From contig CH464491.1 in the NCBI GenBank assembly GCA_000002445.1, positions 2,464,001 to 2,528,000 on the forward strand: 64,000 nucleotides of DNA, given 5' to 3'. The position numbers were made by a program, and so were the translations under genes. This DNA comes from Trypanosoma brucei. Taxonomy: Eukaryota. The notes beneath the pieces were generated by a model that saw only the letters and a list, made by a program, of their open reading frames with translations, was not told the origin of the DNA and made no database searches. Shown here piece by piece: positions 785 to 53,233 of the stretch. Numbering within the stretch: the stretch's first letter is position 1; each line of letters begins with the position of its first letter.

Positions 785-788
<4 letters not shown>

Positions 789-5320: not shown

Positions 5321-5341
5321 ACCCCGCCTGCTGCTCGCATT

Positions 5342-24451: not shown

Positions 24452-24867
24452 ACAGACCTTAGCGCAATCGAGGTATTGGTGTAAAGTCGGTCAATTGTAG
24501 GCGAGTATGCATCAGTGCAAGGGCTGACAAATATTTCCCTGCAGCTGCCATGTTCGGCTGCCCTTTTGATCATCCAAACGGGTCAGTTAAACCATAGAGC
24601 GTGAGACATGCGAATAAACGTAAAGCTTTGGAGGTATATCTCCGTTACACGCTGCCCATGTGATAGGATGGCGCCTGAATGGATAAGGAAAGCGAGCTGA
24701 TGGCAGGAAGAAATGTGAATCCCATTATTTGTTGTGTGGAAATTATATGTGGATGTGAGAGTGAGAGTGAGGTTGGTAAGTTGATAACTGTACGTGTGGC
24801 GGTGATACGACACCCCACTGAATAAGATGCTTCATCAGTATCTCCTTCCTCTTCATGCCAATTCAAA
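24452..24867. repeat. inverted-repeat arm A (416 bp), reverse complement of 52818-53233
   Basis: A line-by-line reverse-complement comparison gives 415/416 identity. The single mismatch is at 24556 (partner 53129). The identical 76-aa spurious ORFs at 24583-24813(-) and 52872-53102(+) in the ORF track confirm it. Homology breaks sharply at both ends. Confidence 0.97.
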
Positions 24868-24871
24868 CCAG
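24841..24871 (+). promoter_or_regulatory. polypyrimidine tract plus AG at the right end of IR arm A, a candidate trans-splice acceptor for the 24931 gene
   Basis: tctccttcctcttc (24841-24854) is followed by AG at 24870-24871, about 60 nt before the ATG at 24931. Confidence 0.4.
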
Positions 24872-24930
24872 CTGCATATATACGCCCGTCTGCGGAGTAG
24901 GAAACGCAAGAAAGAGAGACAAGAGACAAG

Positions 24931-26175
24931 ATGGGATGTCAACAAAGTGGAGTGCGAATGTCTCCTCAGGACCTTAGTGATCGCACTCCCAGTGGTCAAC
25001 ACGGGTTTACAGGGGATGCCAGCAACACGGCACTTCCCACTGTTCCAACAGACTCATGGTATGGTAAAAACTTTAGTGAAACATCACGTATGGCATTTAC
25101 CGAGTTTCACTTAAAGCAGCGGGGAAACATCGTTTTCGCCGGGACCCCCGTTCCTGTTGGCGCCTCGGAATTGGGTGAGTTCCCTGGCAACTCCCCACCG
25201 CTGCTCACAAGGGCAGTTATTGGCAAGGACAATGTGTACGGCATGGCGTACCTCTATAGCACTCCACTTTCCATTGAGCATCAGTGGAGACTGCGTGTAT
25301 GCCACTACCAAATAGCGTGTTCACCCTCTGGACAAACGCTAGGGGAAGTGCCGGGGGCGCTTTCTACACTTCCTGAGACCCCAACGACAGATGAGCAGAA
25401 AATCAGACTGTGGAACTTCGCTAAACAAGTCTACGACCGGCCGCTTTGCGACACTTTTGTTGGGATCAAAGTGTATGTTGACGGAGAGCTTGTGCCCGAC
25501 CGTTATCCGAGAGCCAAAAGTCTCCCAAACTGCACAGCTACACTCGAATCTAGTGAAGTGTTTAATAACTGGACCTGTGTTCCTTTTGTACTTGTTGGTT
25601 ACGTGAACAGTCCGATGATAAGTACTGTTACGATGTACAGGCACCTGTCCCTTAGCTTCGTTGAGTACTTGTTGGGCAAAACCATCACGGGTGGAGAAAC
25701 CGACAGAACAAAAGATGAAGAGGTGGCGGAATGTAAAGACGAGAATACCGTTGGGGATGGACGTAGTGTGGACGCGCCCGATAAGCCGAAGGAGGAGGTC
25801 ACCCAGTCTTTCAATGTTTCTGTAGAGGTTGTGTACGGTTGTGAGGCGGAGATGAATTTCTGCACAGCCCACATTGCGAAGGGGAACATAGAACTTGTTA
25901 TGGGAGAGCACTCAGACGCAGCTTTACGAAAATATAAGGCTTCACTTGAGGAGTTTCTTAGGAAAAGCGGCAACGAGCGTCATCAGGTAGTTGCGGTGGA
26001 TCCTTTGACACTCAAAGGGCGGAACTCGGCATTATGGACTTGTTTGTTTTGCGGGTCTCCCCTGCAGTTCACGTGTACGATTTGCGGCGCCGAGCTGTGT
26101 GGAATGTCTTCGTGTGTGTGGAAGCCCTTCACGGGGTATCCGCTTGGCTGCTCGTCTCATAAGGCGCAGGCGTGA
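24931..26175 (+). CDS. hypothetical protein with a dual-acylation-type N-terminus and a C-terminal Cys cluster, 414 aa
   Basis: ATG ORF. MGCQQSG has Gly2, Cys3 and Ser6. The C-terminus has a zinc-finger-like spacing, CLFCGSPLQFTCTICGAELCGMSSCVWKP...GCSSH. Confidence 0.7.
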   Translation: MGCQQSGVRMSPQDLSDRTPSGQHGFTGDASNTALPTVPTDSWYGKNFSETSRMAFTEFHLKQRGNIVFAGTPVPVGASELGEFPGNSPPLLTRAVIGKDNVYGMAYLYSTPLSIEHQWRLRVCHYQIACSPSGQTLGEVPGALSTLPETPTTDEQKIRLWNFAKQVYDRPLCDTFVGIKVYVDGELVPDRYPRAKSLPNCTATLESSEVFNNWTCVPFVLVGYVNSPMISTVTMYRHLSLSFVEYLLGKTITGGETDRTKDEEVAECKDENTVGDGRSVDAPDKPKEEVTQSFNVSVEVVYGCEAEMNFCTAHIAKGNIELVMGEHSDAALRKYKASLEEFLRKSGNERHQVVAVDPLTLKGRNSALWTCLFCGSPLQFTCTICGAELCGMSSCVWKPFTGYPLGCSSHKAQA

Positions 26176-27009
26176 GGGTGACTCCCCAAGTTTTTGAGAT
26201 TCAGTTTCTGTATACGTTTCGTTTCGGTGTTATCATTCACCATTACTACTGTTTTCTCAACATCAACCCACTGAGCACGGATGTGCATGTGGGGTATTGT
26301 ATGTCTCTGGGCACTGGCAACGACGCAGGGGGAACAAATGTCCGAACTGGCCGGCTGCATATTTGGCAGATTCGGCTCTACTAAAAATGACGCGAAATGC
26401 AAAAAGGGATATACGTTATCTCCGTACTAATCTTTGCGCCTCCTTACGTGGTGTCAGTTATGAAGCTAATCTGCCTACCGCCCCCCCCCTCTTCCATTGA
26501 AACCCCGGTGTATACTTTTCGTTTTCTTTGTACTTTTCCTTTACTTCTTTTGTTTGTATATTTTATAATAAGGAAGTGGCTAACCTGTTGCTTATGGAAG
26601 TCAGTCGCGTTTTGTGCATGCAACATTGTGCTTAAACTTCAAAAACATTAAAGATAAAATAACGCATTGCACATCCTTCTTTTGCTTTTAATATGGTGTT
26701 GCATCTTGCCGACTGTCCGCCAACCTCGTTTTGCGCCACCAGCCTGTTTTCATTCTTCTTTTCTTTTATGTGTGTGTTATACTTCTCATGCGTTGTTAAC
26801 ACCACTGTAGTTTTCCACCTGTAGGAAACGCCAGGTGCGCCACGGCATCCAAAGGGTTACTCAGCAGAAACCTTACAAGGAAGCCAATTGTCTAACACGC
26901 TGCTGTGGAGGTTTCTATCTGCACCATTTTCCATTCATACATATACGTATACCGATTTCTTTACCCGAATATTTATTTTAAAAAAAACCGTACTCGGGCG
27001 GTTCTTGAA

Positions 27010-29586
27010 ATGCTATCCAAGTTATTCCGGTATGACACGAAACTTCAGGGGAAGCAGGAACTCAGTACCGCTGATCACAGGTCGTTACTTGAGCTTAGTA
27101 TGACAGACAACATTACATCCGTAGAGATTCCGCAGTACAGGGTGCGGGGGACGTTTGTTGAGTATGTGATTGAGTGCACAAAACGAAACATGACGTGGCA
27201 GGTGTTTCGGCGTTACCAGCAATTTAAGGCACTTGACCAGAGTCTGAAACAACTATGCTCACGCGGATCCTCAAGGCACTGTGACTACGGGGTCATTCCT
27301 GTCCTCTGCGGTAGCCACTGGACGGAAGTAACTAACCAGTCAATCGACCTCGTAGAAAAACGGCGGAGGCACTTGGAAATTTACCTCCGCCAGTTGCTCG
27401 TCCCGGGGAATGTATTTTATGTTGCTAAAACCGTGATTTACGATTTTCTTCACGATGGCGCGGTTCCTGCGCAGCACCAAAGGAGGGCCATACGACCGCT
27501 AATTGGCTTTGCAACGCCAGACTCGTTGGCAGACCTCCACTTGGAAAACAGGAACGGCGAAGGGAGTGCGAGCCGGTTAGGGGCGGCCTCAACTCTCAAC
27601 GATAAATCGATTTCTATGCTTGGGCCATCTGCTGTTGGTGAAAGTGATCGAGTGGATGATGGTGTCGGGGACGAAGAAGAGGAGCCCTGCAAATCACCTC
27701 CAGGAGAGACCGTAGAGAGCGGTGAGGAATGTGAAGATTTACCATCAGCTGACAACAGTGAAGCTGAGGACGTGCGTGTGCCGCCACCAGGCTCCTTGTG
27801 CAGGCAATGTAACGCTGAGTTTTCTTCTGTGCTGTATCCGCATCGTTGTTTCTTCTGTAGGCAACAGTTTTGTCGCGACTGTTTGCACCCAGTCGAACTT
27901 GAAGAAGGAGAGGTCGCTAGATCATGTGTTCAATGTTATGAAAACTTTGCTCGAAAGACCTGTAAACCCCAATATCCCCCAACTCCCATGGCTTCAACAC
28001 CAATACTTCAGTGCGCACCTGCTGGTGGTGCGTTGGACCCGTTGAACTTACTCGGTAGTACGTCCCACGTGCGAACAGATGTAACACTTTCTGACTTTAA
28101 GTTAGTTACAACTGTGGGACGTGGCACGTTTGGCAAAGTGATGAAAGTTATCTTTCGTGAAGATGGCAAGGTTTATGCTATGAAAGTGCTCAACAAGTGT
28201 GTTATTCACAAGCGGCGAATGATCGAGTACATCAGGGAGGAGAAGAATATCATGTCCTCTTTACCCTCGCATCCGTACATTGTAACATGTCACTTCGCAT
28301 TTCAGACTGACTACCATCTTTTCTTCGTACTGGACTACCTCCCTGGTGGAGACATGCACTCGCGTGTTTACCCTAAACTCAAACTAACTGAATCGGATGT
28401 CCGTTTGTATATTGCTGAACTTGTACTCGCACTCCAACATCTGCACCGTCACGACATTGCCCATCGTGACGTCAAGCTCGAAAACATTGTCTTGGGAGAA
28501 GACGGACATCTTAAACTGACAGATTTTGGGCTGGCACGCATGAATTTCTCACGGCAACGCCGTCGCAGTTTTGTGGGGAGTCCGGAGTACCTTCCGCCAG
28601 AAACGATTCAGGGGAAGTACCAAACGAAGGCTGTGGATTGGTGGAGTGCGGGGGTCATGCTGTACGAAATGCTGAGTGGGAAGACGCCGTTTTACTCGGC
28701 GTACAATTGTGAAATCTACAACAATGTGTTGAAGGCGGAGTTGGACCTCACAGCCCCGTGTTTCACGCCAGAGGCCGCCTCACTCATTGAACAACTGCTT
28801 CAAAGCCATCCAAAAGCAAGGTTGCAAGACGCAGGGGCAATAAAGGCTCATCCTTACTTTGCATCAATCGATTGGGCTGCTCTCGAAGGTAAAAAAATAT
28901 CTGCCCCCATACAGCTTGATCTTATGGGAAATGATATGAAATACATCAAATGGAAGTTCACGGCGGAGTGGGCTGTTATATACAAACCTCCTGGAGTGAC
29001 ACGTGCTACAATTGACCTTTTGATTAATCGCTTTAGTAACTTTGCTCATGTGAGCGAGGGGACGCCGCCCACGCCGCATCTGCCGATAGGGCAGCAGCAG
29101 GAAGAGGTATCTGACGGAGTGACAAACCCACCGGATATAACCGGCGTTTGGAATGTTGTCAAGGTAGAGATGCAAACGGAGGATGGAAAGATCACGCATC
29201 CTTGGGGAAGTGCAGTGTGTGGAGTGCTAGCGTACTTCCCAGAGGGTCAGTTCAGCATGCAGCTTACATCATATATGCGTCCACATTTGCGGCAACAGTT
29301 CGTGGATCGTGCCGTGAGAGAGGATCTGGTAGAAATGTGCAACTCGTACGCGGGCAGTTTCGGAAAGTATCAGATCAAGCCAGGGAGCAATATCATTACT
29401 CACAGGCTTCACGGCTGCCTCTGTCCGAATCTTACAGGAAGTACACAAAAGTATTTTTTTGAGGTTCGTGAGAGGAAAGAAAATGGGGCTAAAGTGTTGA
29501 AACTTTTTACCGCGTGTAACGCGCTCCCAGGTGAAGACATCTCCGCACAAACCGTCCTCACATGGGAACGGACGGGTTCCTGCTAA
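27010..29586 (+). CDS. AGC-family Ser/Thr protein kinase with N-terminal PX and FYVE-like domains and a C-terminal lipocalin-like domain (about 858 aa)
   Basis: The track start at 26905 is GTG; the first ATG is 27010. PX domain: YRVRGTFVEYVIEC...WQVFRRYQQFKALDQSL...RRRHLEIYLRQLL. FYVE-like Cys pattern: CRQCNAEF...HRCFFCRQQFCRDC...CVQCYENF. Kinase motifs are intact: GRGTFGKV, YAMKVL, HRDVKLENIVL, DFGLAR, GSPEYLPPE. C-terminal domain: GVWNVVKVEMQTEDGKITHPWGSAVCGVLAYFPEGQFSMQL...YAGSFGKYQIKPGSNIITHRLHGCLCPNLTGSTQKYFFEV. Confidence 0.85.
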   Translation: MLSKLFRYDTKLQGKQELSTADHRSLLELSMTDNITSVEIPQYRVRGTFVEYVIECTKRNMTWQVFRRYQQFKALDQSLKQLCSRGSSRHCDYGVIPVLCGSHWTEVTNQSIDLVEKRRRHLEIYLRQLLVPGNVFYVAKTVIYDFLHDGAVPAQHQRRAIRPLIGFATPDSLADLHLENRNGEGSASRLGAASTLNDKSISMLGPSAVGESDRVDDGVGDEEEEPCKSPPGETVESGEECEDLPSADNSEAEDVRVPPPGSLCRQCNAEFSSVLYPHRCFFCRQQFCRDCLHPVELEEGEVARSCVQCYENFARKTCKPQYPPTPMASTPILQCAPAGGALDPLNLLGSTSHVRTDVTLSDFKLVTTVGRGTFGKVMKVIFREDGKVYAMKVLNKCVIHKRRMIEYIREEKNIMSSLPSHPYIVTCHFAFQTDYHLFFVLDYLPGGDMHSRVYPKLKLTESDVRLYIAELVLALQHLHRHDIAHRDVKLENIVLGEDGHLKLTDFGLARMNFSRQRRRSFVGSPEYLPPETIQGKYQTKAVDWWSAGVMLYEMLSGKTPFYSAYNCEIYNNVLKAELDLTAPCFTPEAASLIEQLLQSHPKARLQDAGAIKAHPYFASIDWAALEGKKISAPIQLDLMGNDMKYIKWKFTAEWAVIYKPPGVTRATIDLLINRFSNFAHVSEGTPPTPHLPIGQQQEEVSDGVTNPPDITGVWNVVKVEMQTEDGKITHPWGSAVCGVLAYFPEGQFSMQLTSYMRPHLRQQFVDRAVREDLVEMCNSYAGSFGKYQIKPGSNIITHRLHGCLCPNLTGSTQKYFFEVRERKENGAKVLKLFTACNALPGEDISAQTVLTWERTGSC

Positions 29587-30015
29587 TCTCTTGCCTATAC
29601 GCTTCCCTGCCCCGTTAAATAATGGGCTGTTGCTGGGCCTCTCCCGTTGCTACTCTTCCCTGTTGCCTCCAATGTACCCAAACACGCTCATCTCACTGTT
29701 GGAGCCGTACAATGTGCTTCCATCTGCTGCTAGTGACTGATAAGGTGGGACAGTCTGGCGGCACCTTTTTTCTATCTCTCTGCCGTGGCACGGCTGCTGT
29801 ACAGTTCGGGGTATCGATTTCTCATAGCGCATCTTTTTCTTTTTTTCAGAAACACCCCTCTGTTATTGCCATTTGTCGAACGAACTCTTACCTTCATATG
29901 CTATTAATCATTCTCTGGTCACAAGTTGACGAATTTCTAGGACAAGAGAACGACAGAAGTAGAGGTAAAAAGAAAAAGGTGACCGCGGCACTCTTCTCTT
30001 TGTGCATCGTGTAGC

Positions 30016-32022
30016 ATGCTCTCCAGTGCGCTGAGGTTTGTAAAACCCGTCAAGCGGATGACGGCAACTGCTGGAAGGATCGTTTTTTCTAGCATCACAA
30101 ACACCCAGAAACGCGTAAGCACATCATCACAAGCCACAACCAAGTCGACTTTGGTTCTCTCTGATGAGGACCGCAAGCTAATGCCTCAGGGGATCGCACA
30201 ACCTACCATAGCGGAGCCCGGTGGAGTTAATGCACAGCAAGAACCAAGGAACGCTTCAGATACCATGGATGCAAGTACCGCTGTAGGGATCGGGAACCTT
30301 CGCAGAGGAAATAGCGGTGCATCCACACATGCTGGTGGTTATGCACCGTGGGAAATCCGCGCGCTCCTTGTTCCACTGTTGCCTGTAGGCAACACCTTTG
30401 TTCACATAAGTAGCGTCATCCACCTTCTTCCTTCGGCAGCACGGAAGGAAATGGAGCGTGAGGGGACACCCCTTCAGTACATAGAGAAATATCTATCGGA
30501 CAGTGTTATTGTCAGGGGGAGCCTGCTCTCGCGCATCACAACAGGTGCAAGCAGTTGTGACAAGGGGAATGGATGTAACAAAGCTTCTGTTGCGCCGCCA
30601 CCGCCTCCCATTTCCGTTGGTCGTGCAAGCGGTCCAGCTTCACAGCAGCAGCAGCAGCAGCAGGGCTTGCCTCCGCGAGGTGGTGCGGGTGCGAAAACAA
30701 CTCTTGAAGTGTTGGATATGTTAATTGAATTCATTCCAACCTTCTTTGTACAACACCAGATGGTAGCCGACCAGTTGCCGTCTGAAATTACAAAGCAGTT
30801 TGCTGACAGTAGTTTTCTTTATTATCTCAAGCGGTTCCGTCACTACATTGACATACGTGCCAGCCACGGGAACACTGAAATCCGGCTCCGCCCCGATTTT
30901 TCACACCCTAAGCGGGGTGCAGCTGATTCTCTCTACACCACTGGACTGAGCAGCAATGACATATTGAGCCAACTCGCCCGCGGTCGAAGGCCACCACGAC
31001 ACTCAGAGGCCAACTTAATTCAATTCATAGTGCCACGAATGCCCATCGAATACACTCCAATAGCTACCGTCCTGCAGGATGTGTCAGATATCGTCTCCCG
31101 CCATCCCTCCTTTGATCCTCGTCTCGGGGTAACGGGTCTCTTCGAGAAATACCCAGAATATTTTCAGATCACTGACTCCAAACTGCGAGTTCGGCCGTTT
31201 CGCAGTGCGCCAAATTCATTGGATGATTTGAACGCTACTACCTCACCCCTACCTGCTATATACGAGAAGGTTAAGCAACTGGTGGATGCACAGGCCGAGG
31301 GAAAGGACTACAGTAAAGAGTCAGAGAAGGCAGCTGCCATTGTGCCGACTGGTAAACTATACGCGCTACTTACTAACGTAGAAAAAACGGAGGTAAAAGC
31401 AAAATGTCGCTCCTTCCCGCGTTTCTTGCGGCTGCACGGCGAGGAGATTGTGGTATCTGTGGACAGCATGAAGGTGTACAAGTTCCGGCCAACGTATGAA
31501 CCCTGCGCAGAAACTCTTATGGATCAGCGGCTTATGATGAGTTCACTCTCCCCTAGTGACCCCGTACTAAAGATACCAGCCACAATGGAGGAAAGCAGTT
31601 CTGCTGACTGGGCCGTACGGGAGCTGTACGACGCGTTGCCGCTTATGCAGTGTGCTGAACTTAGTGAAGTGATGTCGCTCGTTCCGCCCTCCATAAGGGA
31701 TGCACTGCCAAAGGAGCTGGAGAAGCTTGTGGAACATTTGGCATTGTATCCCGACTACTTCGCCACCTGGCCCTACCCCGACGATCCCACTGTGATGGTG
31801 GTTCAGCGAGCAAAGCTGGAGCCGTTGCACTTAAAGAACGAAGACATTGTGAGGATGGTTCTTTCGTTTATTCCCCAGGGCGGTATTGAAGCGCACAAGC
31901 TGATGCGTCGCGTCCCGCTTCCTCTTCAAAGACACTTCTACCGCCACGGGTTGAAGAGGGTGCTTGGCGAACTTAAGGACTACTTTTTGATTGTTGGTGA
32001 TAAGGTTATGCGCGTAGGTTGA
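30016..32022 (+). CDS. hypothetical protein, probable mitochondrial presequence, poly-Q tract, six copies of a Y-x-x-YF...VRxRP-type motif, 668 aa
   Basis: ATG ORF. The N-terminus MLSSALRFVKPVKRMTATAGRIVF is basic and amphipathic. Q7 run at about 30643-30663. The repeated motif is described in findings. Confidence 0.7.
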   Translation: MLSSALRFVKPVKRMTATAGRIVFSSITNTQKRVSTSSQATTKSTLVLSDEDRKLMPQGIAQPTIAEPGGVNAQQEPRNASDTMDASTAVGIGNLRRGNSGASTHAGGYAPWEIRALLVPLLPVGNTFVHISSVIHLLPSAARKEMEREGTPLQYIEKYLSDSVIVRGSLLSRITTGASSCDKGNGCNKASVAPPPPPISVGRASGPASQQQQQQQGLPPRGGAGAKTTLEVLDMLIEFIPTFFVQHQMVADQLPSEITKQFADSSFLYYLKRFRHYIDIRASHGNTEIRLRPDFSHPKRGAADSLYTTGLSSNDILSQLARGRRPPRHSEANLIQFIVPRMPIEYTPIATVLQDVSDIVSRHPSFDPRLGVTGLFEKYPEYFQITDSKLRVRPFRSAPNSLDDLNATTSPLPAIYEKVKQLVDAQAEGKDYSKESEKAAAIVPTGKLYALLTNVEKTEVKAKCRSFPRFLRLHGEEIVVSVDSMKVYKFRPTYEPCAETLMDQRLMMSSLSPSDPVLKIPATMEESSSADWAVRELYDALPLMQCAELSEVMSLVPPSIRDALPKELEKLVEHLALYPDYFATWPYPDDPTVMVVQRAKLEPLHLKNEDIVRMVLSFIPQGGIEAHKLMRRVPLPLQRHFYRHGLKRVLGELKDYFLIVGDKVMRVG

Positions 32023-32729
32023 AGAACTCTAACATTACGTGAATCCACTGTTGTGATCACGCGAATAAAAACATTGATGATGGTGACACTTGAGCTACCG
32101 GTTAGCATACCGAGCGTGGAATTTCTTGGGTTGTGACTTCCGCATGCACGGAAGGATGGGCGCAGCATCATTGAGTCCAGAACGCGTGGGTTTGCGGCGA
32201 GTGGTTGACGCTAACAGAAATCATCACCGAGGTAACTTTTGAGAAGGATACAGAAGTTTGTTTGTGTGTGTGAAGCGTGGTGTCGCCACTGAGGATGTTT
32301 CTGGTGATACTTTCTGGCCACGAAAGGCTGATCCTTTTTATCGCCTAGTATTTCCATATTATTGATGACCGTTACTCTTCCCTTCACACAGGGTCACACA
32401 CGGCATATTCAATTCTTGAGTATAACAACTCTCACGCTTGCCTTCGTTTTCGTTATCATTCTTGATTATCCTGTGCATAGTACTAGGTAAGTAGAAGTCA
32501 GAATCAATTTCAGTGACTAGAATTGTTCCGTTTCCCACCTGTGGGAAAAGTTACCTATCCGTTAGGTTATATTCGCTTCGTTGTACATATACACAAGCAC
32601 TCGAACATTTTTATTTCGTTTTTGTTTTCAGGATAGTGTCGGTGTTTTGTTTTTACCTTTTCGAAGTTTAGTGGTATACTCTGTTGCTCACACTTTTGCT
32701 CGTGCGCACCTTTGAGTTCGCTTGGCTAA

Positions 32730-35021
32730 ATGCTACAAAAGGAGGTATTGGGCTCAAATGCGAATTCCTCCACGGTTCTTGTAAAGGACACAGAGGCTGG
32801 AGGGGAACTCCGCGTTGTTAAGCGAATCAACGTCACCTCGTGGGCGGAATCCGATGTGGACAAAACACTCGAGACGTACAACGCTATTGCTTCGGCAAAT
32901 ATACCGAATATGGTTAAGTTGTACGTGGCCATGCGGCAGAGCTCCTCCATAAGTGTCGTGAGCTCCTACTGCCTTGGCGAGGAACTGCAGGAGTACCTTG
33001 ACGAGAAAATCTCCTGTCCTTTAGATGAGGTTACTGCCTTGAGGTGGATGCGAAATATAGCGCGGGTCGTGCAACAGGTCCACAACCTTCCCCTCAACAA
33101 CAGGGTGGCATGTTTTCATGGACCTTTAATTGATCGTATTTTTGTTGTGGACGACGGTAAAGAGGTATGCGTAGGTTTGCCACTACCACGCGTCTTGTAC
33201 TTCAAATGGCTTGAGGAGCGTGAGACGTATGGTGTTAAATTGCACCACGAATACCCACCAGAAGTTCTGCGCGGCCGGTATTATTACACCCAAGCAAGCG
33301 ATATTTGGCAGTTAGGACTCGTAGGAATGAAGTTGTTAGCAGCTAACGCCTCATTTGATCGTCGATCAGCCGCCATTCGGACACTTATTGCGTCCATGAT
33401 GAACCCCATAATGAGGAAGCGACCTAACATTGAAGAGGTTAACAGAAAATTGGGGGAAATCACACGGGAACGCAGTATCTCATGCTTGTCGTCTGCGGAT
33501 GTGAATACTCCGACATCGTATGAACGATTTCTCACTCCGCGCTCCGCAGTTATGGAGGAGCCGATCGGAATGACATCGTTGGATGAGTATGACACCTTCA
33601 CCACCGACCTTAGTAAGACGAACTTCGATGAGGTGACCCAAAGCACGCATAAACATGCCTGGCGTAACAGGCTTCAACCAAGTTGGTACAACCAAGCGAT
33701 GAAGCAATTTGAGGAGCTGCAACGGATGAACTCAACCCCGTTAACGTCAAGGTCACGCCCGGCATCACCCACGCCAGCAACTGGTGGAGCTGTATCACCG
33801 CGAGCGAGGAGAGATGCAAAGGCAACAAACGCACGGGACAGGTCGGGTGGAGCTCGGCCATCTCCCCGTCGGCGCGCGTCCTCTTCAACGCTTACCGGAC
33901 CACAAAAAAATCGAACTCTTGAGCGCGTGCCGAGCTCGGCGCGCAGGGACCTTGCGATGCCCAGAATGTTGAATAACATTCCGTCTCAGCGGTCGCGTAA
34001 TGCCCATAGGTTGGAATTGGAAGAAAAAAAGCGAAGGCAACAGGCTCTGGAGCGAGAGGCCCATGCCATGCACCGAGTTCATGAAAATAGGATGCGGGAA
34101 ATCCGTAAGAACCAAGATGAGTCCATGAAACACGATATTCGGAAGTACATCAAGCAGTGGAGAGAGCAGAGCACCGCCGCAAAAGACGATAGCACTTCGT
34201 ATAGCGAACACAATGGTGTGGCAATATTTGTTCCAAAAAATCCACCACCACCGGGGCGGTCACCAAATGTAGACACGAAAGCAAAGCAACAACCACTTAA
34301 TAGTGAAGGGGATACACACAGGAGGGTTTTCTCGGATGAACTCACGCATGCAGCGGCAGGGCCGGTGGTGCATGGAAGCACACCAAGACCCTACAGTGCG
34401 ACACGACACCCGCGGACACCACCATCAGCTACACCGAAGCGCTCAGCATCTATATACCGCATCCGTGGCATTAGCCCCAAGGTGCCGCACTCACGTGCCA
34501 ATCCCTCCGACAGATACAAGGTCACAGAAAGTGCACCCACCACCACTGTGTCGTGTGCAAATCCTTCCAGTAGCAAAAATAGTGGCACGACGGCCTACCA
34601 AACTAGTGAAACCTCGTCCGGTACATATCCGTCAGGAACGAACAGGGCGGGGCAATCAAATTCACGGACAATCTCCGTTCTGGGAGAAGACGCGACTAAA
34701 CCAAGCTGCACAGCTGGTGTGCCAGGCACTAATCGTCTCGCTGCGGAAAGTCTCAGGTGTTCTGCGGGTAGATTGCGGGAAGCACTGGAGAAACTATTAC
34801 CAACCCGCGAGTTGTTCGTTGAGACAATGGAAGTTGTAGATGCCTTCGTGGTGCGCTCAGAGATTGAGCGGTGTAACCCTCGTTTCAACACAGTGTTCAT
34901 GCACACACTTAGGAAGTTAATGAATGATGATGAACTTCTTCTTTCCGCCGTTCCGATGTGTGCGCAGTTAGTTTCGTTGTTGAGTCTGTTGCAAGGAGGC
35001 GAACAGCCTGAGGGGACGTAA
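32730..35021 (+). CDS. protein-kinase-like protein, predicted pseudokinase, with a long disordered basic/Ser-rich C-terminus, 763 aa
   Basis: ATG ORF. Kinase-fold landmarks are present (LRVVKRI lysine, YPPEVL, DIWQLGLVGMKLL). The Gly loop is degenerate (LGSNANSSTV). The HRD region reads FHGPLIDRIFV and the DFG position reads VGLPLP. Confidence 0.75.
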   Translation: MLQKEVLGSNANSSTVLVKDTEAGGELRVVKRINVTSWAESDVDKTLETYNAIASANIPNMVKLYVAMRQSSSISVVSSYCLGEELQEYLDEKISCPLDEVTALRWMRNIARVVQQVHNLPLNNRVACFHGPLIDRIFVVDDGKEVCVGLPLPRVLYFKWLEERETYGVKLHHEYPPEVLRGRYYYTQASDIWQLGLVGMKLLAANASFDRRSAAIRTLIASMMNPIMRKRPNIEEVNRKLGEITRERSISCLSSADVNTPTSYERFLTPRSAVMEEPIGMTSLDEYDTFTTDLSKTNFDEVTQSTHKHAWRNRLQPSWYNQAMKQFEELQRMNSTPLTSRSRPASPTPATGGAVSPRARRDAKATNARDRSGGARPSPRRRASSSTLTGPQKNRTLERVPSSARRDLAMPRMLNNIPSQRSRNAHRLELEEKKRRQQALEREAHAMHRVHENRMREIRKNQDESMKHDIRKYIKQWREQSTAAKDDSTSYSEHNGVAIFVPKNPPPPGRSPNVDTKAKQQPLNSEGDTHRRVFSDELTHAAAGPVVHGSTPRPYSATRHPRTPPSATPKRSASIYRIRGISPKVPHSRANPSDRYKVTESAPTTTVSCANPSSSKNSGTTAYQTSETSSGTYPSGTNRAGQSNSRTISVLGEDATKPSCTAGVPGTNRLAAESLRCSAGRLREALEKLLPTRELFVETMEVVDAFVVRSEIERCNPRFNTVFMHTLRKLMNDDELLLSAVPMCAQLVSLLSLLQGGEQPEGT

Positions 35022-47321: not shown

Positions 47322-48155
47322 CACAGTAGGCAGTTGTTATTTTGATATTAAGCTTTTTTCCTTGGTGGGCATCCCGCACACCGTCTACACCTTGTGTTTC
47401 CTTGGTAAGTGAACCATCGCTTAATAATTCGTGGGTTCGCTAGAACCTCAAGTTCGATGGCGGAGGTCAATGCCTGCCCCTGAGCACCCTGATGCGGAAA
47501 ATAGACCCGCTAACAATGTTGCGTGTTGATTCCGGTTCTACAGAAAGTTGAAAAGGCACCCATCTGGGGGATGCAGCGAGGGGCGAGTAAACTCATGCAA
47601 AATGGGTCGAAGAACATCGCAAAACGAAGGTAGACACCGGCTTTTCTGCCGGTTCACTGCCGACCTCCATATCACTACTCTTATCTGGAGGCATAGAATA
47701 CAGGAAAACTGGTGAGACTGCGCGGTTACGGTAAGATTATTAAACTCTGATGCGTGGTTTCTGGTGCCAGGATTTGTTTCAGATGGCAGTTTAGGCGTCA
47801 ACATTTGTCTCATAGAAAGGCTTTGCGCGCATGAGTCACCACTTTTCCCGAAACACCAACAAGAGAGTATTCCCTTGGTGTTTCCAGTTGACCCCTATGT
47901 GTACCTTGTTGTTGTACATTTACTTTTGACACGGTCAACACCTTCCCACCGAGTTGTATGGTGGGTGGGCTAAAAAGTTGCGTGGATTTTTGTATTCCAC
48001 GTTTTGTTGTTGCTATTCGCGGGTGCGAAGCTCTTTGATATGCGTTGCTCTCCTCCCCTCTTCCTCGGCCCACGCTATGTTTTACTTCTTTGCAAACCCT
48101 CTTTACGCGTTGACTACGCTGGCAACAAGGCTGAGAGATCGCCGGAATCCTTAAA

Positions 48156-49202
48156 ATGGAGTGGGTTCCGTGCACCGAGCAGACGGGGTCGGTGGGCTGC
48201 CGCGAGGGGCACTGCGCAACCTCTCTTCAAGAAAAAAGTACTGGAGAAGAATGGGTTTTGGTTGTTGGGGGATATTGCGAAGGGGAGCGCGACGGCGCGG
48301 TTATGGCAGCGCGAGCAGATGGACTGCCGATGCTACGATGGGTTCGGCTGGATAAGCCCAACATGACGTGGTTCGAATGTGATGGGGCTTCGCTAACGCA
48401 CGTAACTGGCGACACCGCCTACTTCTTTGGTGGATTAAACGAGCACATGAATCACAGTAATCAGTTACTCTGTCTTTCCCTGCATCAGGGGCAACAGGGT
48501 GATCTTTCCCTCGATGTGGTGAAGGTAGAGACAACAGGAGACGTCCCTCTTCCGCGCGCGAGGCATTCAGCTGGTAGTGCCGGGCGGTATTTCGTTGTGT
48601 TCGGTGGTGAAACGGAAGATGCTGAACAAAATAATGACGGATACATCCTGGACACCGACACAATGGTATGGACACGAATTCCAACAGGGCACCAGGTGCC
48701 CAATCCACGACTTCTCGCCGGCCCTCTTGTGTTCTACTCACCCCACGGGTGCATACTTTACGGTGGGGCACACTTTGTGAACGGCGATATAAGGAGTATG
48801 TCTGACGTGTGGAACCTGCACATCCCGCTGGGAGGCACATGGTTTAACGTTTCCTATGGGGACGGCGCCCCCGCCTGTCGCTTCCCGAGGTCGAATGGTC
48901 ACGCCGGTGGCGTTCTGGGGCGGGTTGGGGGAGAAACTGTAGTGTTGTTTGTTGGAGGAAAGGATGCCGCTGAGGGGTGTGACAGAGTAAAACAGGTGCA
49001 GCCTCCGAAATCTGCTGAAGACAAATTCCATCTTCGTCTGGTAGACCCCGTGTTGGCTGGTGGTGAGGGCCCGCACTGGCGGTACACACCAGCAGCGGTA
49101 GATACACGACGTGGCGTATTGCTTTTGGGTGGTCAGTGCCGTCATCCACAGGAGGTTGCTGCCTTCCTACTAAAGCAGACGGGTGTTACTTTGCAACGGT
49201 AA
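48156..49202 (+). CDS. kelch-repeat (galactose-oxidase-type beta-propeller) protein, 348 aa
   Basis: ATG ORF. It has repeated blades with GG doublets and conserved Trp/Tyr: WVLVVGGYCEG, AYFFGGLNEH, YFVVFGGETED...MVWTRIP, CILYGGAHF, VVLFVGGKD, VLLLGGQC. Confidence 0.8.
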   Translation: MEWVPCTEQTGSVGCREGHCATSLQEKSTGEEWVLVVGGYCEGERDGAVMAARADGLPMLRWVRLDKPNMTWFECDGASLTHVTGDTAYFFGGLNEHMNHSNQLLCLSLHQGQQGDLSLDVVKVETTGDVPLPRARHSAGSAGRYFVVFGGETEDAEQNNDGYILDTDTMVWTRIPTGHQVPNPRLLAGPLVFYSPHGCILYGGAHFVNGDIRSMSDVWNLHIPLGGTWFNVSYGDGAPACRFPRSNGHAGGVLGRVGGETVVLFVGGKDAAEGCDRVKQVQPPKSAEDKFHLRLVDPVLAGGEGPHWRYTPAAVDTRRGVLLLGGQCRHPQEVAAFLLKQTGVTLQR

Positions 49203-49537
49203 CAAATAATCAACAAGGTGGAATCAGTGGAGACAATTTGGAGAGATAGTGCAGTACTGCGCCCTACTGAATTCGGGGTTGTTTCGTTATTATCGTTTAC
49301 GTTTCGTACGCATTTCTTGTTTGTCTTCGCTTTTTTTGGATATGCGTGATGTGGCGCGTCGTTTTCACACAGCCTTTTTCCCTAATGTTAGCCCTCCAAA
49401 CCCTCACCCCCTCAATCTGAAGAAAAAGAGAGGGGCTTTCGTATCCTCAGGACTCGACCGCAAGTATGTCTTTAATTTTTTTTTGTATCATCCCTCATCC
49501 GTTCACCCGCACAAAGTGTTCCAAGGTGTCGATCATC

Positions 49538-50731
49538 ATGCAGATGTTGGCCCCTGGTGCTTTCTTCAACGCATTAAAGGTCCGGGGGGTTACACACTTT
49601 TTTGGAGTTCCTGACCCCATTCTAAAATATTTCTGTGCCTTCGTGGCAAGTCACACGACACCGAAGGAACACATCATCACAGCAAACGAAGGGAATGCAG
49701 TGGCCATGGCTGCAGGTTACCATCTTGCAACTGGGGGACTCCCTTTGGTGTACATGAAAAACAGTGGCTTAGGCGATGCACTCAATCCCCTGATCTCTCT
49801 CACACACGCTGAGGCGTGCAGCATTCCCATGTTTATAGTCGTTGGTTGGCGAGGAGCTCCTGATGCTGGAAATGAGCTACCGTGTGCCGCAGAAGGGCGC
49901 TTGACCGAAGGAATCCTACGTGCTGCTGAGGTCCCGTATATCATTTTATCTTCTGCTTGTGGAAACGGGGAGCAGTCGATGGAAACAGCTCTGGATATGG
50001 CACTGAAGCACGTGCATAATTCAAGGACGCCCTATGCCTTTTTGGTACCACCAAACTTTTTTGAGGAATGCGCTTACGAAGGGGTTGGAGAAGGTATTGC
50101 TGAGCTTCCCATGACTCGCAGGGAGGCGGTTGAACAAGCACTGCGCCAAATAGACCGGGGAGATATAGTTGTGGGCGCCGCAAGCTTCCTTGCTCGTGAA
50201 ATCTTTGAAGTTCAGGAGTGTGCCGGGATGCGACACGGCCCACAATTCTTCCCAGTCGGCAGCATGGGTCATTGTTCTTCCGTAGCAGCGGGTATAGCAT
50301 TGGCCAAACCAGAAAGGCAAGTGTTTTGCTTTGATGGAGATGGCGCATTCCTTATGCACATGGGTTCATCAGCAACCATCGGCGGTGTAGCCGCCATACA
50401 TTTAATAGGTACGGGCGAAACTTCCCTCATGCGCAACTACAAACATGTCGTTTTCAACAACGGATCCCACGATTCGGCAGGTGGTCAACCCACTGTGTCT
50501 TTTGATGTATCCCTCACGCAAGTGGCGAGTGCGTGTGGTTTTAGGACTGTCCGCGAAGAACCCGTAATGGACCTTGGCGAAACTGTGCGGGCCCTTCAGG
50601 AATTAAAGAAGGCGGAAGGGCCCGCGTTCTTGGAAGTATTTGTGCGAAGGGGCGGCCATTCAAACCCACAATGTGAACTTCCCTCTTTAGATGAGAGCAA
50701 ACAAGCTCTCACTAACTGCTTGAGGGGCTAG
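49538..50731 (+). CDS. thiamine-diphosphate enzyme, phosphonopyruvate decarboxylase-like (about 397 aa)
   Basis: The first ATG at 49466 lies in pyrimidine-rich sequence, and homology begins at ATG 49538 (MQMLAPGAFFNALKVRGVTHFFGVPDPILKYF). ANEGNAVAMAAGYHLATGGLPLVYMKNSGLGDALNPLISL is collinear with bacterial Ppd/AepY as recalled. The C-terminal ThDP motif is GDGAFLMHMGS...NNGSHDSAGGQP. Confidence 0.8.
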   Translation: MQMLAPGAFFNALKVRGVTHFFGVPDPILKYFCAFVASHTTPKEHIITANEGNAVAMAAGYHLATGGLPLVYMKNSGLGDALNPLISLTHAEACSIPMFIVVGWRGAPDAGNELPCAAEGRLTEGILRAAEVPYIILSSACGNGEQSMETALDMALKHVHNSRTPYAFLVPPNFFEECAYEGVGEGIAELPMTRREAVEQALRQIDRGDIVVGAASFLAREIFEVQECAGMRHGPQFFPVGSMGHCSSVAAGIALAKPERQVFCFDGDGAFLMHMGSSATIGGVAAIHLIGTGETSLMRNYKHVVFNNGSHDSAGGQPTVSFDVSLTQVASACGFRTVREEPVMDLGETVRALQELKKAEGPAFLEVFVRRGGHSNPQCELPSLDESKQALTNCLRG

Positions 50732-50810
50732 TAATATCAGAGTACGCGGAGGGTGAGAAACGGCATATATGTGGATCAACACCTCGTTTGAGCGCTATTA
50801 AACGGGTATC

Positions 50811-50821
50811 GGGGGGGGGGG
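50811..50821. repeat. G11 homopolymer in the Ppd-COQ2 spacer
   Basis: Direct count. Confidence 0.95.
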
Positions 50822-51132
50822 ACCTGTGGGGAAACAAAAGAGGAAGTCGCTTTATTTTCTCACAATCAAACCCAAACAATTTGGTAGTACCAATGGAAAG
50901 GGAGGAGGAGCGAGTGAACGCAAGTAGTGAAGTAGAAGGGATGAACCCAACCAACAAGTCAAATGTTATCTTCCACTGTTACCCCTCATCTCTCTAGTAA
51001 GTGACGCTCCGACGTGGCTGGGGTGAAGACAGAAGTTCTGCTCCGTACCGGCTGAAGTGCGTAGGAAAGGCAAAACTAACAAGCATTTCTCAAGCGGCCC
51101 GCAATAGAAACATCGCTGAAAAGAAAGGGGGA

Positions 51133-52605
51133 ATGTTAAGGCGTACAATTTTCCTGGGAAGGGTAACCCGCTCTTGGACCAAAGGATCTATAGTTAAGGC
51201 ATCGGCCCATTTCCCAGATTCTGTGAGGGCTGATCCCGCAGAAAGACGTAATGAAGACTCGTCTCCGAAGGAAAGCCGCACATGGTCTCTTCATGACGGC
51301 CCGTGCAGCGAACCTCTTCACGTTCCCAAACATATTCAATGGGCAACACAGAAGGTGAGAGTTTGGGGGCAACTAATGCGAGTGGATAAGGCTGCTGCAA
51401 TAAACCTCCTGCTTCAACCTTGTTACTGGGGAGCCAGTCTAGCAGTAACTCGGGCCATCGTCTGGGAGGGGGCGGATCCTGTCGTTTTGTTCGCTCCTTT
51501 CATTCCCGTACATTTGATCGTCCTGTTCGGCGCTGGTGCCTTTTTGGCTCGGGGTGCGGGTTGTATTATTAACGACATGTGTGACAGAAAGTTCGACCGA
51601 ATGGTAGAACGCACCAAAACACGGCCGCTTGCTAGCGGTGTTGTCAGCATGAAGGAGGCATCAGGCCTTCTCATAACAGTAGCTGGTTTTGCGCTTGTTA
51701 TTGCACTAAACCTGTCGCCCATGGCACTTGCTTCGGCGGTAGCGTTAGCTCCCATCGCGGCAGTTTATCCGCTCATGAAGCGTATAACCTACATGCCTCA
51801 GCTCGTTCTGGGACTTTGCTTCAACGGCGGCATTTTTGTTGGGTATGCTGCCGTGCTAAACCGCATTGATTTGGCCGTTACGCTTCCTATCTACTGCTCA
51901 GCCGTCGTGTGGACAGTTTTGTATGATACCATCTATGCGTACCAAGACAGGGCGGACGACCTGAAATGCGGTGTGAAGAGCTCGGCTATTCTTATTGGTG
52001 ACAGGAAGCATATTCTCACTTTCATGATACTCCCCATCGGCATGGGTATTCTTATTTCGGGATTGATGGTCTCACAGTCGCTTCCGTTTTACATCGGTGT
52101 CCTCTGTTGCGTTTGGTACCTTCAGGGTGTCGTTGATAACGTCAACATATACGATGCGTGGTCATGTGGTATGGGATTCCGCAGGAACGTACGATTTGCC
52201 ATCCTGGTTACTTTTTCTCTCTGCCTTGGAAACGTGTTGTGGGCACTCGCATCTGAGCACCAACCGGAAAAGGACGCCGCGAGCAACGCCATATCGGAAA
52301 AGTCGGCCTTGATGAAATTCCTTCTTTTGAATAAGGAAGCGGAACCCATGTCGTACAGCGTGCAAGATATTCGTTGGGTAGACCGTTTTGCGCATCCGGC
52401 ATTCGTGGCAGCGCAGAAGGCTCAACACGAGGGAGAGGAAAAAACGGTGGTGGTGCCGGCGTGGATGCGGCGTGAGTACCTGGGTGAGAATGTAGGGACT
52501 ATCATGCGCTTTTTTGGCGTTGACGAGGAAGCAATCCAAACTTGGCAAAAGTGGTGGTACGCGCAACTTGACCACTACAACATGTTCTCCAGCATCGCCG
52601 TTTAG
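51133..52605 (+). CDS. COQ2: 4-hydroxybenzoate polyprenyltransferase (COQ2, UbiA family) with a C-terminal extension (about 490 aa)
   Basis: The track start at 51001 is GTG; the first ATG is 51133 (MLRRTIFLGRVTRSW, presequence-like). UbiA Asp-rich motifs NDMCDRKFDRMVERTKTRPLASG and YAYQDRADD. There are multiple hydrophobic helices, followed by about 120 aa of soluble Trp-rich tail. Confidence 0.88.
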   Translation: MLRRTIFLGRVTRSWTKGSIVKASAHFPDSVRADPAERRNEDSSPKESRTWSLHDGPCSEPLHVPKHIQWATQKVRVWGQLMRVDKAAAINLLLQPCYWGASLAVTRAIVWEGADPVVLFAPFIPVHLIVLFGAGAFLARGAGCIINDMCDRKFDRMVERTKTRPLASGVVSMKEASGLLITVAGFALVIALNLSPMALASAVALAPIAAVYPLMKRITYMPQLVLGLCFNGGIFVGYAAVLNRIDLAVTLPIYCSAVVWTVLYDTIYAYQDRADDLKCGVKSSAILIGDRKHILTFMILPIGMGILISGLMVSQSLPFYIGVLCCVWYLQGVVDNVNIYDAWSCGMGFRRNVRFAILVTFSLCLGNVLWALASEHQPEKDAASNAISEKSALMKFLLLNKEAEPMSYSVQDIRWVDRFAHPAFVAAQKAQHEGEEKTVVVPAWMRREYLGENVGTIMRFFGVDEEAIQTWQKWWYAQLDHYNMFSSIAV

Positions 52606-52817
52606 TGTCAAGACATGCTGCTAGCAGAGGGGAACATGGAAAAGCAACTGCGACTTGTGGGATTTGTCTTCATTGGACGGTCTGGGATTTGTTACTGAAA
52701 GAAGGTAAGAGATGGTTCAACAGCAGTCAAATAAACAAAATATATATATGTACATCGTTACCCCCCGCTCCCTCTCTACCCCCATTTTTCAGCACGGTCA
52801 GAAATACATGTGTCTGT

Positions 52818-53233
52818 TTTGAATTGGCATGAAGAGGAAGGAGATACTGATGAAGCATCTTATTCAGTGGGGTGTCGTATCACCGCCACACGTACAGTTA
52901 TCAACTTACCAACCTCACTCTCACTCTCACATCCACATATAATTTCCACACAACAAATAATGGGATTCACATTTCTTCCTGCCATCAGCTCGCTTTCCTT
53001 ATCCATTCAGGCGCCATCCTATCACATGGGCAGCGTGTAACGGAGATATACCTCCAAAGCTTTACGTTTATTCGCATGTCTCACGCTCTATGGTTTAACT
53101 GACCCGTTTGGATGATCAAAAGGGCAGCAGAACATGGCAGCTGCAGGGAAATATTTGTCAGCCCTTGCACTGATGCATACTCGCCTACAATTGACCGACT
53201 TTACACCAATACCTCGATTGCGCTAAGGTCTGT
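52818..53233. repeat. inverted-repeat arm B (416 bp), reverse complement of 24452-24867
   Basis: See arm A. It lies in the spacer between the COQ2 stop (52605) and the next ATG (53432). Confidence 0.97.

What the first reader, a model, noticed from the sequence alone, without database searches (positions are those of the whole stretch)
24452..53233. Near-perfect 416-bp inverted repeat pair bracketing a 27.95-kb, 11-gene block inside a single polycistron
Reverse-complementing 24452-24867 reproduces 52818-53233 with one mismatch in 416 positions (24556 vs 53129), and similarity stops abruptly at both ends. Both arms lie in spacers of the same + strand gene cluster. Arm A ends 63 nt before the ATG at 24931, and arm B starts about 210 nt after the COQ2 stop. 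Together they enclose 27,950 bp that carry housekeeping genes (PX kinase, PUS7, Fe-S helicase, Ppd-like, COQ2 and others). I see no transposase or RT ORF, poly(A) tail or target-site duplication, so the pair does not look like a standard transposon or retroposon. Near-identity implies very recent duplication or ongoing gene conversion. Inverted repeats of this size are recombination substrates: they can drive inversion and, as described for Leishmania, palindromic linear amplicons. An inversion here would put 11 genes antisense to their transcription unit. Persistence of a perfect inverted repeat at this spot is therefore unexpected and suggests either a function or a very young event.
Basis: partly seen in the sequence, partly recalled or inferred. 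Interest (0 to 1): 0.75.

Follow-up and report, generated by a model that had tools for sequence, protein, structure and literature searches.

The report
Low-copy inverted repeat in Trypanosoma brucei
Two nearly identical 416-base non-coding stretches sit in opposite orientation 28 kb apart in one gene cluster of Trypanosoma brucei chromosome 11; the pair is real and kept alike by copying between the two, but it is an ordinary example of a repeat class already counted in the hundreds in this parasite.

Summary
Reverse-complementing 24452-24867 gives 52818-53233 with one mismatch (24556/53129). The borders are abrupt and there is no third copy in the window. The window is T. b. brucei TREU927 chromosome 11.

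Both arms lie at the same sites in T. b. gambiense DAL972. Arm B is in T. equiperdum OVI, and arm A is in a 3.65-Mb contig of T. b. equiperdum IVM-t1. So the pair is neither an assembly artefact nor a very young event.

Two sites differ between TREU927 and DAL972 in both arms at once, and a third variant is shared across arms and lineages. No site separates A arms from B arms. This is the signature of gene conversion between the arms. Between strains the arms diverge at the rate of ordinary spacers (1.0-1.4%), so the sequence itself shows no constraint.

The arm is non-coding, has no special fold or Rfam match, and lacks transposon or retroposon hallmarks. The block's orientation is unchanged in the T. 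brucei-group assemblies, and gene order across each junction is conserved in one outgroup.

Such repeats are known. Ubeda et al. 2014 counted at least 773 intergenic direct or inverted repeats in T. brucei. Tschudi et al. 2012 described seven near-identical inverted repeats that yield siRNAs; this pair is not among them. Genome-wide copy number could not be tested. It is a new member of a known kind, of low interest.

The parts
24452..24867 (+). Arm A, 416-nt core (recognisable unit 24446-24871). Non-coding, 45.7% GC. It sits in the 2.34-kb spacer between the 474-aa ORF (21166-22590) and the 414-aa ORF (24931-26175).
   Evidence: identity. (stops in all six frames). (orthologous copies in DAL972 L001:9522-9937 and in IVM-t1 L005).
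52818..53233 (-). Arm B, the reverse complement of arm A with one mismatch (53129). It sits in the 826-nt spacer between UbiA/COQ2 (stop at 52605) and the 620-aa ORF (53432-55294).
   Evidence: (orthologous copy in DAL972 within L004:2383-2808). (T. equiperdum OVI L002:1-391; the contig ends inside the arm).
24868..52817 (+). Enclosed 27,950-nt block with 11 + strand genes: a 414-aa protein, PX/FYVE-kinase-lipocalin, 668 aa, a kinase-like 763 aa, BTB_SANBR 560 aa, TruD/PUS7, 261 aa, a DEAD_2/Helicase_C_2 helicase, a kelch protein, a TPP enzyme, and UbiA/COQ2.
   Evidence: Same orientation in DAL972 and IVM-t1. Gene order is conserved across the arm A junction in T. cruzi and across the arm B junction in T. 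congolense.
24200..24431 (+). Polypyrimidine-rich stretch ending in AG (24430-24431), 15 nt upstream of arm A. It is a candidate trans-splice acceptor region that would put arm A into a long 5' UTR. Read from the sequence, not shown.
   Evidence: Sequence; inference.
24838..24871 (+). Short polypyrimidine run (TATCTCCTTCCTCTTC) and CAG at the 3' end of arm A. It is an alternative splice-acceptor signal for the gene at 24931. Inferred.
   Evidence: Sequence; inference.
52762..52793 (+). Polypyrimidine tract + AG just upstream of arm B. Inferred signal.
   Evidence: Sequence; inference.
53245..53313 (+). Polypyrimidine tract + AG just downstream of arm B, the likely splice-acceptor region of the 620-aa gene. 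Polyadenylation of COQ2 mRNA is therefore expected within or near arm B. Inferred.
   Evidence: Sequence; established coupling of trans-splicing and upstream polyadenylation in trypanosomes (own knowledge).
55295..58008 (.). Convergent strand-switch region 2.1 kb downstream of arm B. This is context, not part of the repeat.
   Evidence: GC-skew change and ORF strands. (LplA on the - strand).

Best explanation
The feature is a true two-copy inverted duplication, at this locus, of a 416-426-nt non-coding intergenic segment on Trypanosoma brucei chromosome 11. It arose before the split of the T. b. brucei TREU927 and T. b. gambiense DAL972 lineages. This is shown by both arms in DAL972; the T. 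equiperdum assemblies each contribute one arm. The two arms stay almost identical because homologous recombination occasionally copies one arm onto the other without crossover (gene conversion, concerted evolution). This is supported here by the pattern of variable sites. A crossover between the arms would invert the 28-kb block and turn 11 genes antisense to their polycistronic transcription unit. Such products are presumably lost by selection, so only the ancestral orientation is seen (inferred). The sequence itself shows no sign of constraint and has no recognisable coding, structural-RNA or mobile-element features. It fits the known class of low-copy intergenic repeats of trypanosomatids. 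A likely by-product, inferred and not shown, is RNA pairing. Both arms are transcribed by RNA polymerase II from the same strand of one unit, so their RNAs are complementary. They could pair in trans and feed Dicer (DCL2/DCL1), as reported for all seven long inverted repeats described in T. brucei.
For: Identity and borders.

Organism: the two flanking ORFs are identical to TREU927 proteins XP_828990 and XP_829001.

Presence in other assemblies: DAL972 has arm A (98.6%) and arm B. Its two arms differ from each other at 5 sites, so they are not a copy-paste artefact. T. equiperdum OVI has arm B, and the contig ends inside it. T. b. equiperdum IVM-t1 has arm A inside a 3.65-Mb contig.

Concerted evolution: sites 24476 and 24688 have one state in both TREU927 arms and another in both DAL972 arms. 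Site 24790 is C in DAL972 arm B and in IVM-t1 arm A but G elsewhere. No site inside the core separates A arms from B arms. With divergence of 1.44% and 0.96% per arm, the number of sites expected to change identically in both arms by chance is about 416 x 0.0144 x 0.0096 / 3 = 0.02. Two or more such sites therefore have a probability of about 2e-4 (own arithmetic).

No sequence constraint: arm divergence between TREU927 and DAL972 is 1.44% (A) and 0.96% (B). Other spacers give 0.4-2.1% and coding sequences 0.2-1.1%.

No other identity: no Rfam match, fold z-scores of -0.11 and -0.07, stops in all frames and no protein-level match to anything else held, and no TSD, TIR or poly(A).

Known class: PMC4028189 and PMC3447711.
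Against: Genome-wide copy number was not measured, so 'two-copy' holds only for this 64-kb window plus about 95 kb of related loci.

The conversion inference rests on three sites. It assumes that the DAL972 Sanger assembly did not swap reads between the two arms.

Without an outgroup copy, the direction and number of conversion events cannot be given. The T. congolense spacer shows no similarity.

Production of dsRNA or siRNA from arms 28 kb apart is not shown. The seven published inverted repeats all span 12 kb or less, and pre-mRNA processing in trypanosomes is co-transcriptional, so a fold-back within one transcript is unlikely.

Which arm is the parent copy is undetermined.
Confidence: 0.7

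Rival explanations
1. The 416-nt unit belongs to a dispersed interspersed repeat family, such as a degenerate retroposon or an unrecognised non-autonomous element. Two copies happen to lie in opposite orientation in this cluster.
For: Both arms begin 15-25 nt downstream of a polypyrimidine tract + AG despite their opposite orientation, which could hint at an insertion preference. The borders are sharp. Spacer A is four times longer than its T. cruzi counterpart, so DNA has been gained there. The smallest inverted repeat of Tschudi et al. on chromosome 2 has arms of similar size, 422 bp, but its sequence could not be compared.
Against: There is no poly(A), TSD, TIR or ORF. No further copy, even a diverged one, is found in the window or in the other loci held. 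The longest arm reading frame finds a single protein among 5.8 billion, the DAL972 arm-B 'hypothetical protein, unlikely'. Another frame finds no relative, only one weak match (E 1.7e-05, 32% identity) among 1.84 billion representatives. Dozens of copies in annotated T. brucei genomes would be expected to leave more such spurious ORFs, although this is weak evidence. A 99.8% identity between two random members of an old family would be unusual.
Confidence: 0.15
2. The pair is kept identical by selection for a function that needs complementarity. One possibility is a trans-acting dsRNA/siRNA source regulating the mRNAs that carry the arms in their UTRs. Another is a DNA-level boundary or pairing element for the 11-gene block.
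For: All seven long inverted repeats of T. brucei yield AGO1-bound small RNAs, and their authors speculated about selection for hairpin formation (PMC3447711). Several unexplained siRNA loci exist on chromosome 11, listed without coordinates. The arms probably overlap UTRs (inferred).
Against: The arm sequence diverges between strains as fast as neighbouring spacers. In DAL972 the two arms have already drifted apart at 5 sites, which does not suggest strong selection for perfect pairing. Gene conversion alone explains the identity. The 28-kb spacing makes an intramolecular hairpin unlikely.
Confidence: 0.1
3. The pair is a very recent duplication with no conversion needed, or an assembly artefact in which one arm was placed wrongly.
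For: Only one mismatch in 416 nt in TREU927. A short-read T. equiperdum contig breaks inside arm B.
Against: Both arms are at orthologous positions in DAL972, each with its own private substitutions. Arm A lies inside a 3.65-Mb T. b. equiperdum IVM-t1 contig. Shared strain-specific states in both arms require exchange after the strains split.
Confidence: 0.03
4. The pair is the footprint of an inversion made by staggered breaks, which leaves inverted duplications at both ends of the inverted segment.
For: The arms bracket a discrete block exactly, and the borders are sharp.
Against: All 11 genes have the same orientation as their flanks. Gene order and orientation are conserved across the arm A junction in T. 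cruzi and across the arm B junction in T. congolense. The explanation would need two successive inversions, the first of them putting 11 genes antisense.
Confidence: 0.02

Closest known systems
Low-copy intergenic repeated sequences of trypanosomatids ('repeat alignment groups', Ubeda et al. 2014, PMC4028189)
   Same: It is non-coding and intergenic, and its length falls within 0.2-2.5 kb. Identity is far above 85%. Both copies are on one chromosome in inverted orientation. As far as can be seen, the group has only two members, like 242 of the 507 L. major groups. The same search in T. brucei gave at least 773 repeats, and rearrangement junctions were detected by PCR at four tested pairs.
   Different: The T. 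brucei list was not published and the four tested examples are on chromosomes 2, 3, 6 and 7, so this pair is not individually documented. In Leishmania two thirds of such repeats are SIDER retroposon relics; no such relation was found or could be tested here. In T. brucei no stable amplicons form.
Long, essentially identical inverted repeats IR1-IR7 of T. brucei TREU927 that give rise to siRNAs (Tschudi et al. 2012, PMC3447711)
   Same: Same genome. The arm length (416-426 nt) is close to IR1 (422 bp), and identity is at least 99%. Both arms are transcribed. The authors noted the same puzzle of very high identity.
   Different: It is not in their table; the only chromosome 11 entry has 1,814-bp arms within a 12-kb span at 4.219-4.231 Mb. 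The spacer here is 27.95 kb and holds 11 expressed genes, whereas the published loci span 3.6-12 kb. Small-RNA production is untested.
Concerted evolution of inverted repeats by gene conversion (for example palindrome arms of sex chromosomes, or plastid inverted repeats). Comparison from own knowledge.
   Same: The arms are more alike within a genome than orthologous arms are between lineages. Strain-specific substitutions are present in both arms. The borders of identity are sharp.
   Different: The arms are far smaller, the spacer is long, and the arms carry no genes.
ingi/RIME and SIDER-type retroposons of trypanosomatids
   Same: A short non-coding repeat in intergenic or UTR regions of polycistronic clusters.
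   Different: No poly(A) tail, no target-site duplication and no ORF remnants. The shared 5' signature of these elements could not be compared because no reference sequence was available.

Membership tests
Trypanosomatid low-copy intergenic repeats (Ubeda et al. 2014 criteria) | Lies in non-coding intergenic DNA | tested here: met
   Both arms lie between ORFs. All six frames have stops and there is no protein-level match.
Trypanosomatid low-copy intergenic repeats (Ubeda et al. 2014 criteria) | Length 200-2,500 nt and at least 85% identity to another copy on the same chromosome | tested here: met
   416 nt at 99.8% identity, with both copies in the same 64-kb window. Criteria taken.
Trypanosomatid low-copy intergenic repeats (Ubeda et al. 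2014 criteria) | Low copy number (most groups have fewer than 10 members) | tested here: inconclusive
   No third copy in the window or in 95 kb of related loci. Only one spurious ORF in protein collections and no relative in a second frame. The whole genome was not searchable.
Trypanosomatid low-copy intergenic repeats (Ubeda et al. 2014 criteria) | Rearrangement junctions detectable by sensitive PCR | not testable with these tools
   Needs genomic DNA or raw long reads.
T. brucei siRNA-producing long inverted repeats (Tschudi et al. 2012) | Arms of about 0.4 kb or more with at least 99% identity in inverted orientation | tested here: met
   Table 3 of PMC3447711.
T. brucei siRNA-producing long inverted repeats (Tschudi et al. 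2012) | Compact locus (published spans 3.6-12 kb) listed among IR1-IR7 | tested here: not met
   The spacer is 27,950 nt. The only chromosome 11 entry has 1,814-bp arms, and no such repeat exists in the window.
T. brucei siRNA-producing long inverted repeats (Tschudi et al. 2012) | AGO1-bound 22-25-nt small RNAs from both strands, dependent on Dicer | not testable with these tools
   The small-RNA supplements give no coordinates for the unexplained chromosome 11 loci.
Non-LTR retroposons (ingi/RIME, SIDER) | 3' poly(A) or A-rich tail and flanking target-site duplication | tested here: not met
   No A or T run of 6 nt or more at either arm end. The longest word shared by the two flanks is 4-5 nt.
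Non-LTR retroposons (ingi/RIME, SIDER) | Conserved 5' signature shared by trypanosomatid retroposons | not tested
MITE / DNA transposon | Terminal inverted repeats and target-site duplication | tested here: not met
   First 40 nt against the reverse complement of the last 40 nt scores 6, equal to the shuffle mean (309 of 500 shuffles as good). No TSD.
Structured non-coding RNA gene (snoRNA, tRNA and others) | Match to a covariance model, or a fold more stable than shuffles | tested here: not met
   No Rfam hit at gathering score. The best E-value hits are far below threshold. No tRNA. Fold z-scores -0.11 and -0.07.

The most novel reading that the evidence does not exclude
The two arms, transcribed from one polycistronic unit into the UTRs or processed spacers of different genes, pair in trans. 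Arm A RNA would lie upstream of the 414-aa gene or in the long 3' UTR of the 474-aa gene, and arm B RNA in the 3' UTR of COQ2. The pairing would form a dedicated endogenous dsRNA/siRNA circuit that tunes those mRNAs. Complementarity would then be maintained by selection as well as by conversion.
Probability: 0.08. Interest if true: 0.5.

Novelty: new member of a known kind. Interest (0 to 1): 0.22.

Why it matters
It gives a clean, small example of concerted evolution between inverted repeats inside a trypanosome polycistronic unit, with the expected absence of the inverted isomer. It also adds one locus to the short published list of near-identical inverted repeats of T. brucei that can be checked for small RNAs. 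It does not change what is known: intergenic repeats of this type are numerous in T. brucei and Leishmania, and their roles as recombination substrates and siRNA sources have already been described.

Tried and rejected
- **TREU927 lookups.** Exact-protein look-ups of four window ORFs and of the TREU927 proteins found nothing. The TREU927 genome is not in the gene-position index, so TREU927 DNA outside the window could not be fetched and copy number could not be measured.
- **Metagenome scan.** A scan with a 29-mer of the arm found nothing, as expected for a trypanosome sequence.
- **Outgroup dating.** The T. congolense COQ2-downstream spacer shows no similarity to the T. brucei spacer or to the arm, and the T. 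cruzi locus has no match. Neither the age of the duplication nor the parent arm could be inferred.
- **Residual similarity beyond the arms.** None was found, so there is no sign of an older, larger duplication.
- **RNA gene.** Rejected.
- **Pseudogene fragment or local gene fragment.** Rejected.
- **Transposon or retroposon hallmarks.** Absent.
- **Gene identifiers.** A literature search for the Tb927.11 identifiers of the locus found nothing.
- **Small-RNA supplements.** The Tschudi et al. supplements list six unexplained siRNA loci on chromosome 11 without coordinates, so they could not be matched to the arms.


Full report
**1.

A repeat scan of the whole window finds one long inverted pair, 24446-24881 against 52804-53239. 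Base-by-base comparison gives a core of 416 nt: 24452-24867 equals the reverse complement of 52818-53233. The single mismatch is at 24556/53129, and the exact runs are 104 and 311 nt. Four more bases on one side and three on the other still match after one or two mismatches, so the recognisable unit is at most 24446-24871. Beyond that the flanks are unrelated (z between -1.3 and +0.5 for flanks of 30-300 nt).

Shuffled windows give longest exact inverted matches of 14-22 nt. A sensitive blastn finds no third copy in the window.

**2. Where the window comes from**

The ORFs next to the arms are identical to T. brucei brucei TREU927 proteins XP_828990 and XP_829001 of chromosome 11. These are a PX/FYVE protein kinase, TruD/PUS7, a DEAD_2/Helicase_C_2 helicase, a TPP enzyme and UbiA/COQ2, together with kelch, BTB and unassigned proteins. 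A convergent strand switch lies at about 55.3-58.0 kb, 2.1 kb past arm B.

**3. The pair is neither an artefact nor very young**

- T. b. gambiense DAL972 carries arm A at the orthologous place (L001:9522-9937, 98.6% identical). It also carries arm B (within L004:2383-2808). Its two arms differ from each other at five positions, so each was assembled from its own reads.
- The T. equiperdum OVI contig holding the 620-aa gene ends inside arm B, 25 nt short of its far end. This is what a repeat does to a short-read assembly.
- In T. b. equiperdum IVM-t1, arm A lies inside a 3.65-Mb contig.
- The block has the same orientation in these assemblies.
- Gene order and strand are conserved across the arm A junction in T. 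cruzi and across the arm B junction in T. congolense. The present orientation is therefore ancestral.

**4. Why the arms are so alike**

I aligned six arms from four assemblies (variable sites).

- No position inside the core separates A arms from B arms.
- At 24476 and 24688 both TREU927 arms carry one base and both DAL972 arms carry another.
- At 24790 a C is found in DAL972 arm B and in IVM-t1 arm A, while the other four arms have G.
- Orthologous arms differ between TREU927 and DAL972 at 6 (A) and 4 (B) sites. The two arms within a genome differ at 1 site (TREU927) and 5 sites (DAL972).

The number of sites expected to mutate identically in both arms by chance is about 0.02, so two such sites are very unlikely (about 2e-4, my arithmetic). 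The simplest reading is at least one transfer of sequence between the arms after the lineages separated, that is, gene conversion.

The divergence of the arms between strains (1.44% and 0.96%) is within the range of neighbouring spacers (0.4-2.1%). It sits at or above the top of the range for coding sequence (0.2-1.1%). The sequence as such is therefore not conserved; only the likeness of the two copies is.

**5. What the unit is not**

- It has stops in all six frames and no protein-level similarity to anything else in the window or in the fetched loci.
- It has no Rfam match and no tRNA.
- Its fold is no more stable than shuffles on either strand.
- It has no terminal inverted repeats, no target-site duplication and no A-rich tail.
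- Its longest reading frame finds only one protein among 5.8 billion. That protein is the 'hypothetical protein, unlikely' which the DAL972 annotators placed over arm B.
- A second frame finds no relative, only one weak match, among 1.84 billion representatives.

The last two results are weak evidence against a large dispersed family.

**6. Context of the arms (read from the sequence, inferred)**

On the + strand each arm begins 15-25 nt after a polypyrimidine tract ending in AG (24200-24431 and 52762-52793). Arm A ends with its own short pyrimidine run and a CAG, 60 nt before the ATG. Arm B is followed by a second, strong pyrimidine tract (53245-53313) ahead of the next gene.

In trypanosomes the poly(A) site of the upstream gene is set by the downstream splice-acceptor region. 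Arm B is therefore likely to be in the 3' UTR of COQ2 mRNA. Arm A is likely to be in a long 5' UTR of the 414-aa gene or in the 3' end of the upstream transcript.

RNAs carrying the two arms would be complementary over up to 416 nt. A hairpin within one primary transcript is unlikely, because 28 kb separates the arms and processing is co-transcriptional. Pairing in trans is possible.

**7. Comparison with what is known**

Ubeda et al. 2014 (PMC4028189) screened intergenic regions for repeats of 0.2-2.5 kb with at least 85% identity on the same chromosome.

- They found 1,926 such repeats in L. major, in 507 groups, 242 of which have only two members.
- They found at least 773 in T. brucei.
- Rearrangement junctions were confirmed by PCR at four T. 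brucei pairs, on chromosomes 2, 3, 6 and 7.
- They note that T. brucei does not go on to amplify such products.

The present pair meets every sequence criterion of that class.

Tschudi et al. 2012 (PMC3447711) surveyed TREU927 for large inverted repeats.

- They listed seven, with arms of 422 bp to 10 kb, at least 99% identical, within spans of 3.6-12 kb.
- All were sources of AGO1-bound small RNAs.
- The authors remarked on the striking identity.
- Their single chromosome 11 entry has 1,814-bp arms, so this pair is not in their list, perhaps because of its long spacer.

The pair is therefore a further, individually undescribed member of a known kind.

**8. Verdict**

Its idea of gene conversion is supported, and its recombination-substrate argument agrees with the literature. 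The claims that the repeat is unexpected, very young or functional are not supported.

The best explanation has three parts. The pair is an old-enough inverted duplication of spacer DNA. It is homogenised by non-crossover recombination. The inversion product is removed by selection because it would turn 11 genes antisense. The first two parts are shown or supported here. The selection argument and any small-RNA output are inferred.

Three things remain open: the genome-wide copy number, the parent arm and the mechanism of the original duplication, and whether small RNAs arise from the arms.

Noticed in passing
window 18405-18728: Tandem repeats of 18/36-nt period inside the 1967-aa ORF 14687-20590. 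The ORF length differs between assemblies (1878 aa in DAL972, at least 1899 aa in IVM-t1), so the array is length-polymorphic.
   Followed up: no
window 59157-59782: Tandem repeats of 51 and 147 nt inside the 893-aa ORF on the - strand (59143-61824). The orthologue is 887 aa in T. equiperdum OVI.
   Followed up: no
window 55295-58008: Convergent strand-switch region 2.1 kb downstream of arm B. Judging from its DAL972 coordinate (about 2.55 Mb), it is probably CTU48 of Tschudi et al. (Tb927_11_01_v4 2,515,000-2,525,000; 7,394 small-RNA reads). If so, that 10-kb interval may include arm B. This is inference only.
   Followed up: partly
window 22591-24930 and 35022-38086: Two unusually long gene-free spacers. 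The first is 2,340 nt, against 569 nt at the same place in T. cruzi, and is full of pyrimidine and purine runs. The second is about 3 kb, AT-rich, with a (TA)n tract at 36097-36137.
   Followed up: partly
L002 (T. equiperdum OVI, CZPT02001192.1) positions 1-391: The 108-kb contig ends inside arm B, 25 nt before the end of the arm. The repeat broke this assembly.
   Followed up: yes
L003 (T. congolense IL3000, CAEQ01001257.1) 4029-9243: Downstream of the orthologue of the 620-aa gene, the contig carries VSG-type genes (VSG_B, Trypan_glycop) instead of the convergent switch and LplA seen in T. brucei. This is either a synteny break or a misassembly.
   Followed up: no
L004 2277-2609 (DAL972), equivalent to window 52709-53041: DAL972 annotates a 110-aa 'hypothetical protein, unlikely' that runs from the spacer into arm B. 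It is the only protein in the searched collections that matches an arm reading frame and is almost certainly a spurious ORF.
   Followed up: yes
window 24430-24446 and 52792-52818: Both arms start 15-25 nt downstream of a polypyrimidine tract + AG on the + strand, although they are in opposite orientation. This may be chance or a hint about where the copy was inserted.
   Followed up: no
window 716-799, 24028-24072, 36097-36137, 62942-62986: (TA)n / (TAAA)n microsatellites in spacers. They account for all the other, short 'inverted repeats' reported by the repeat scan.
   Followed up: no
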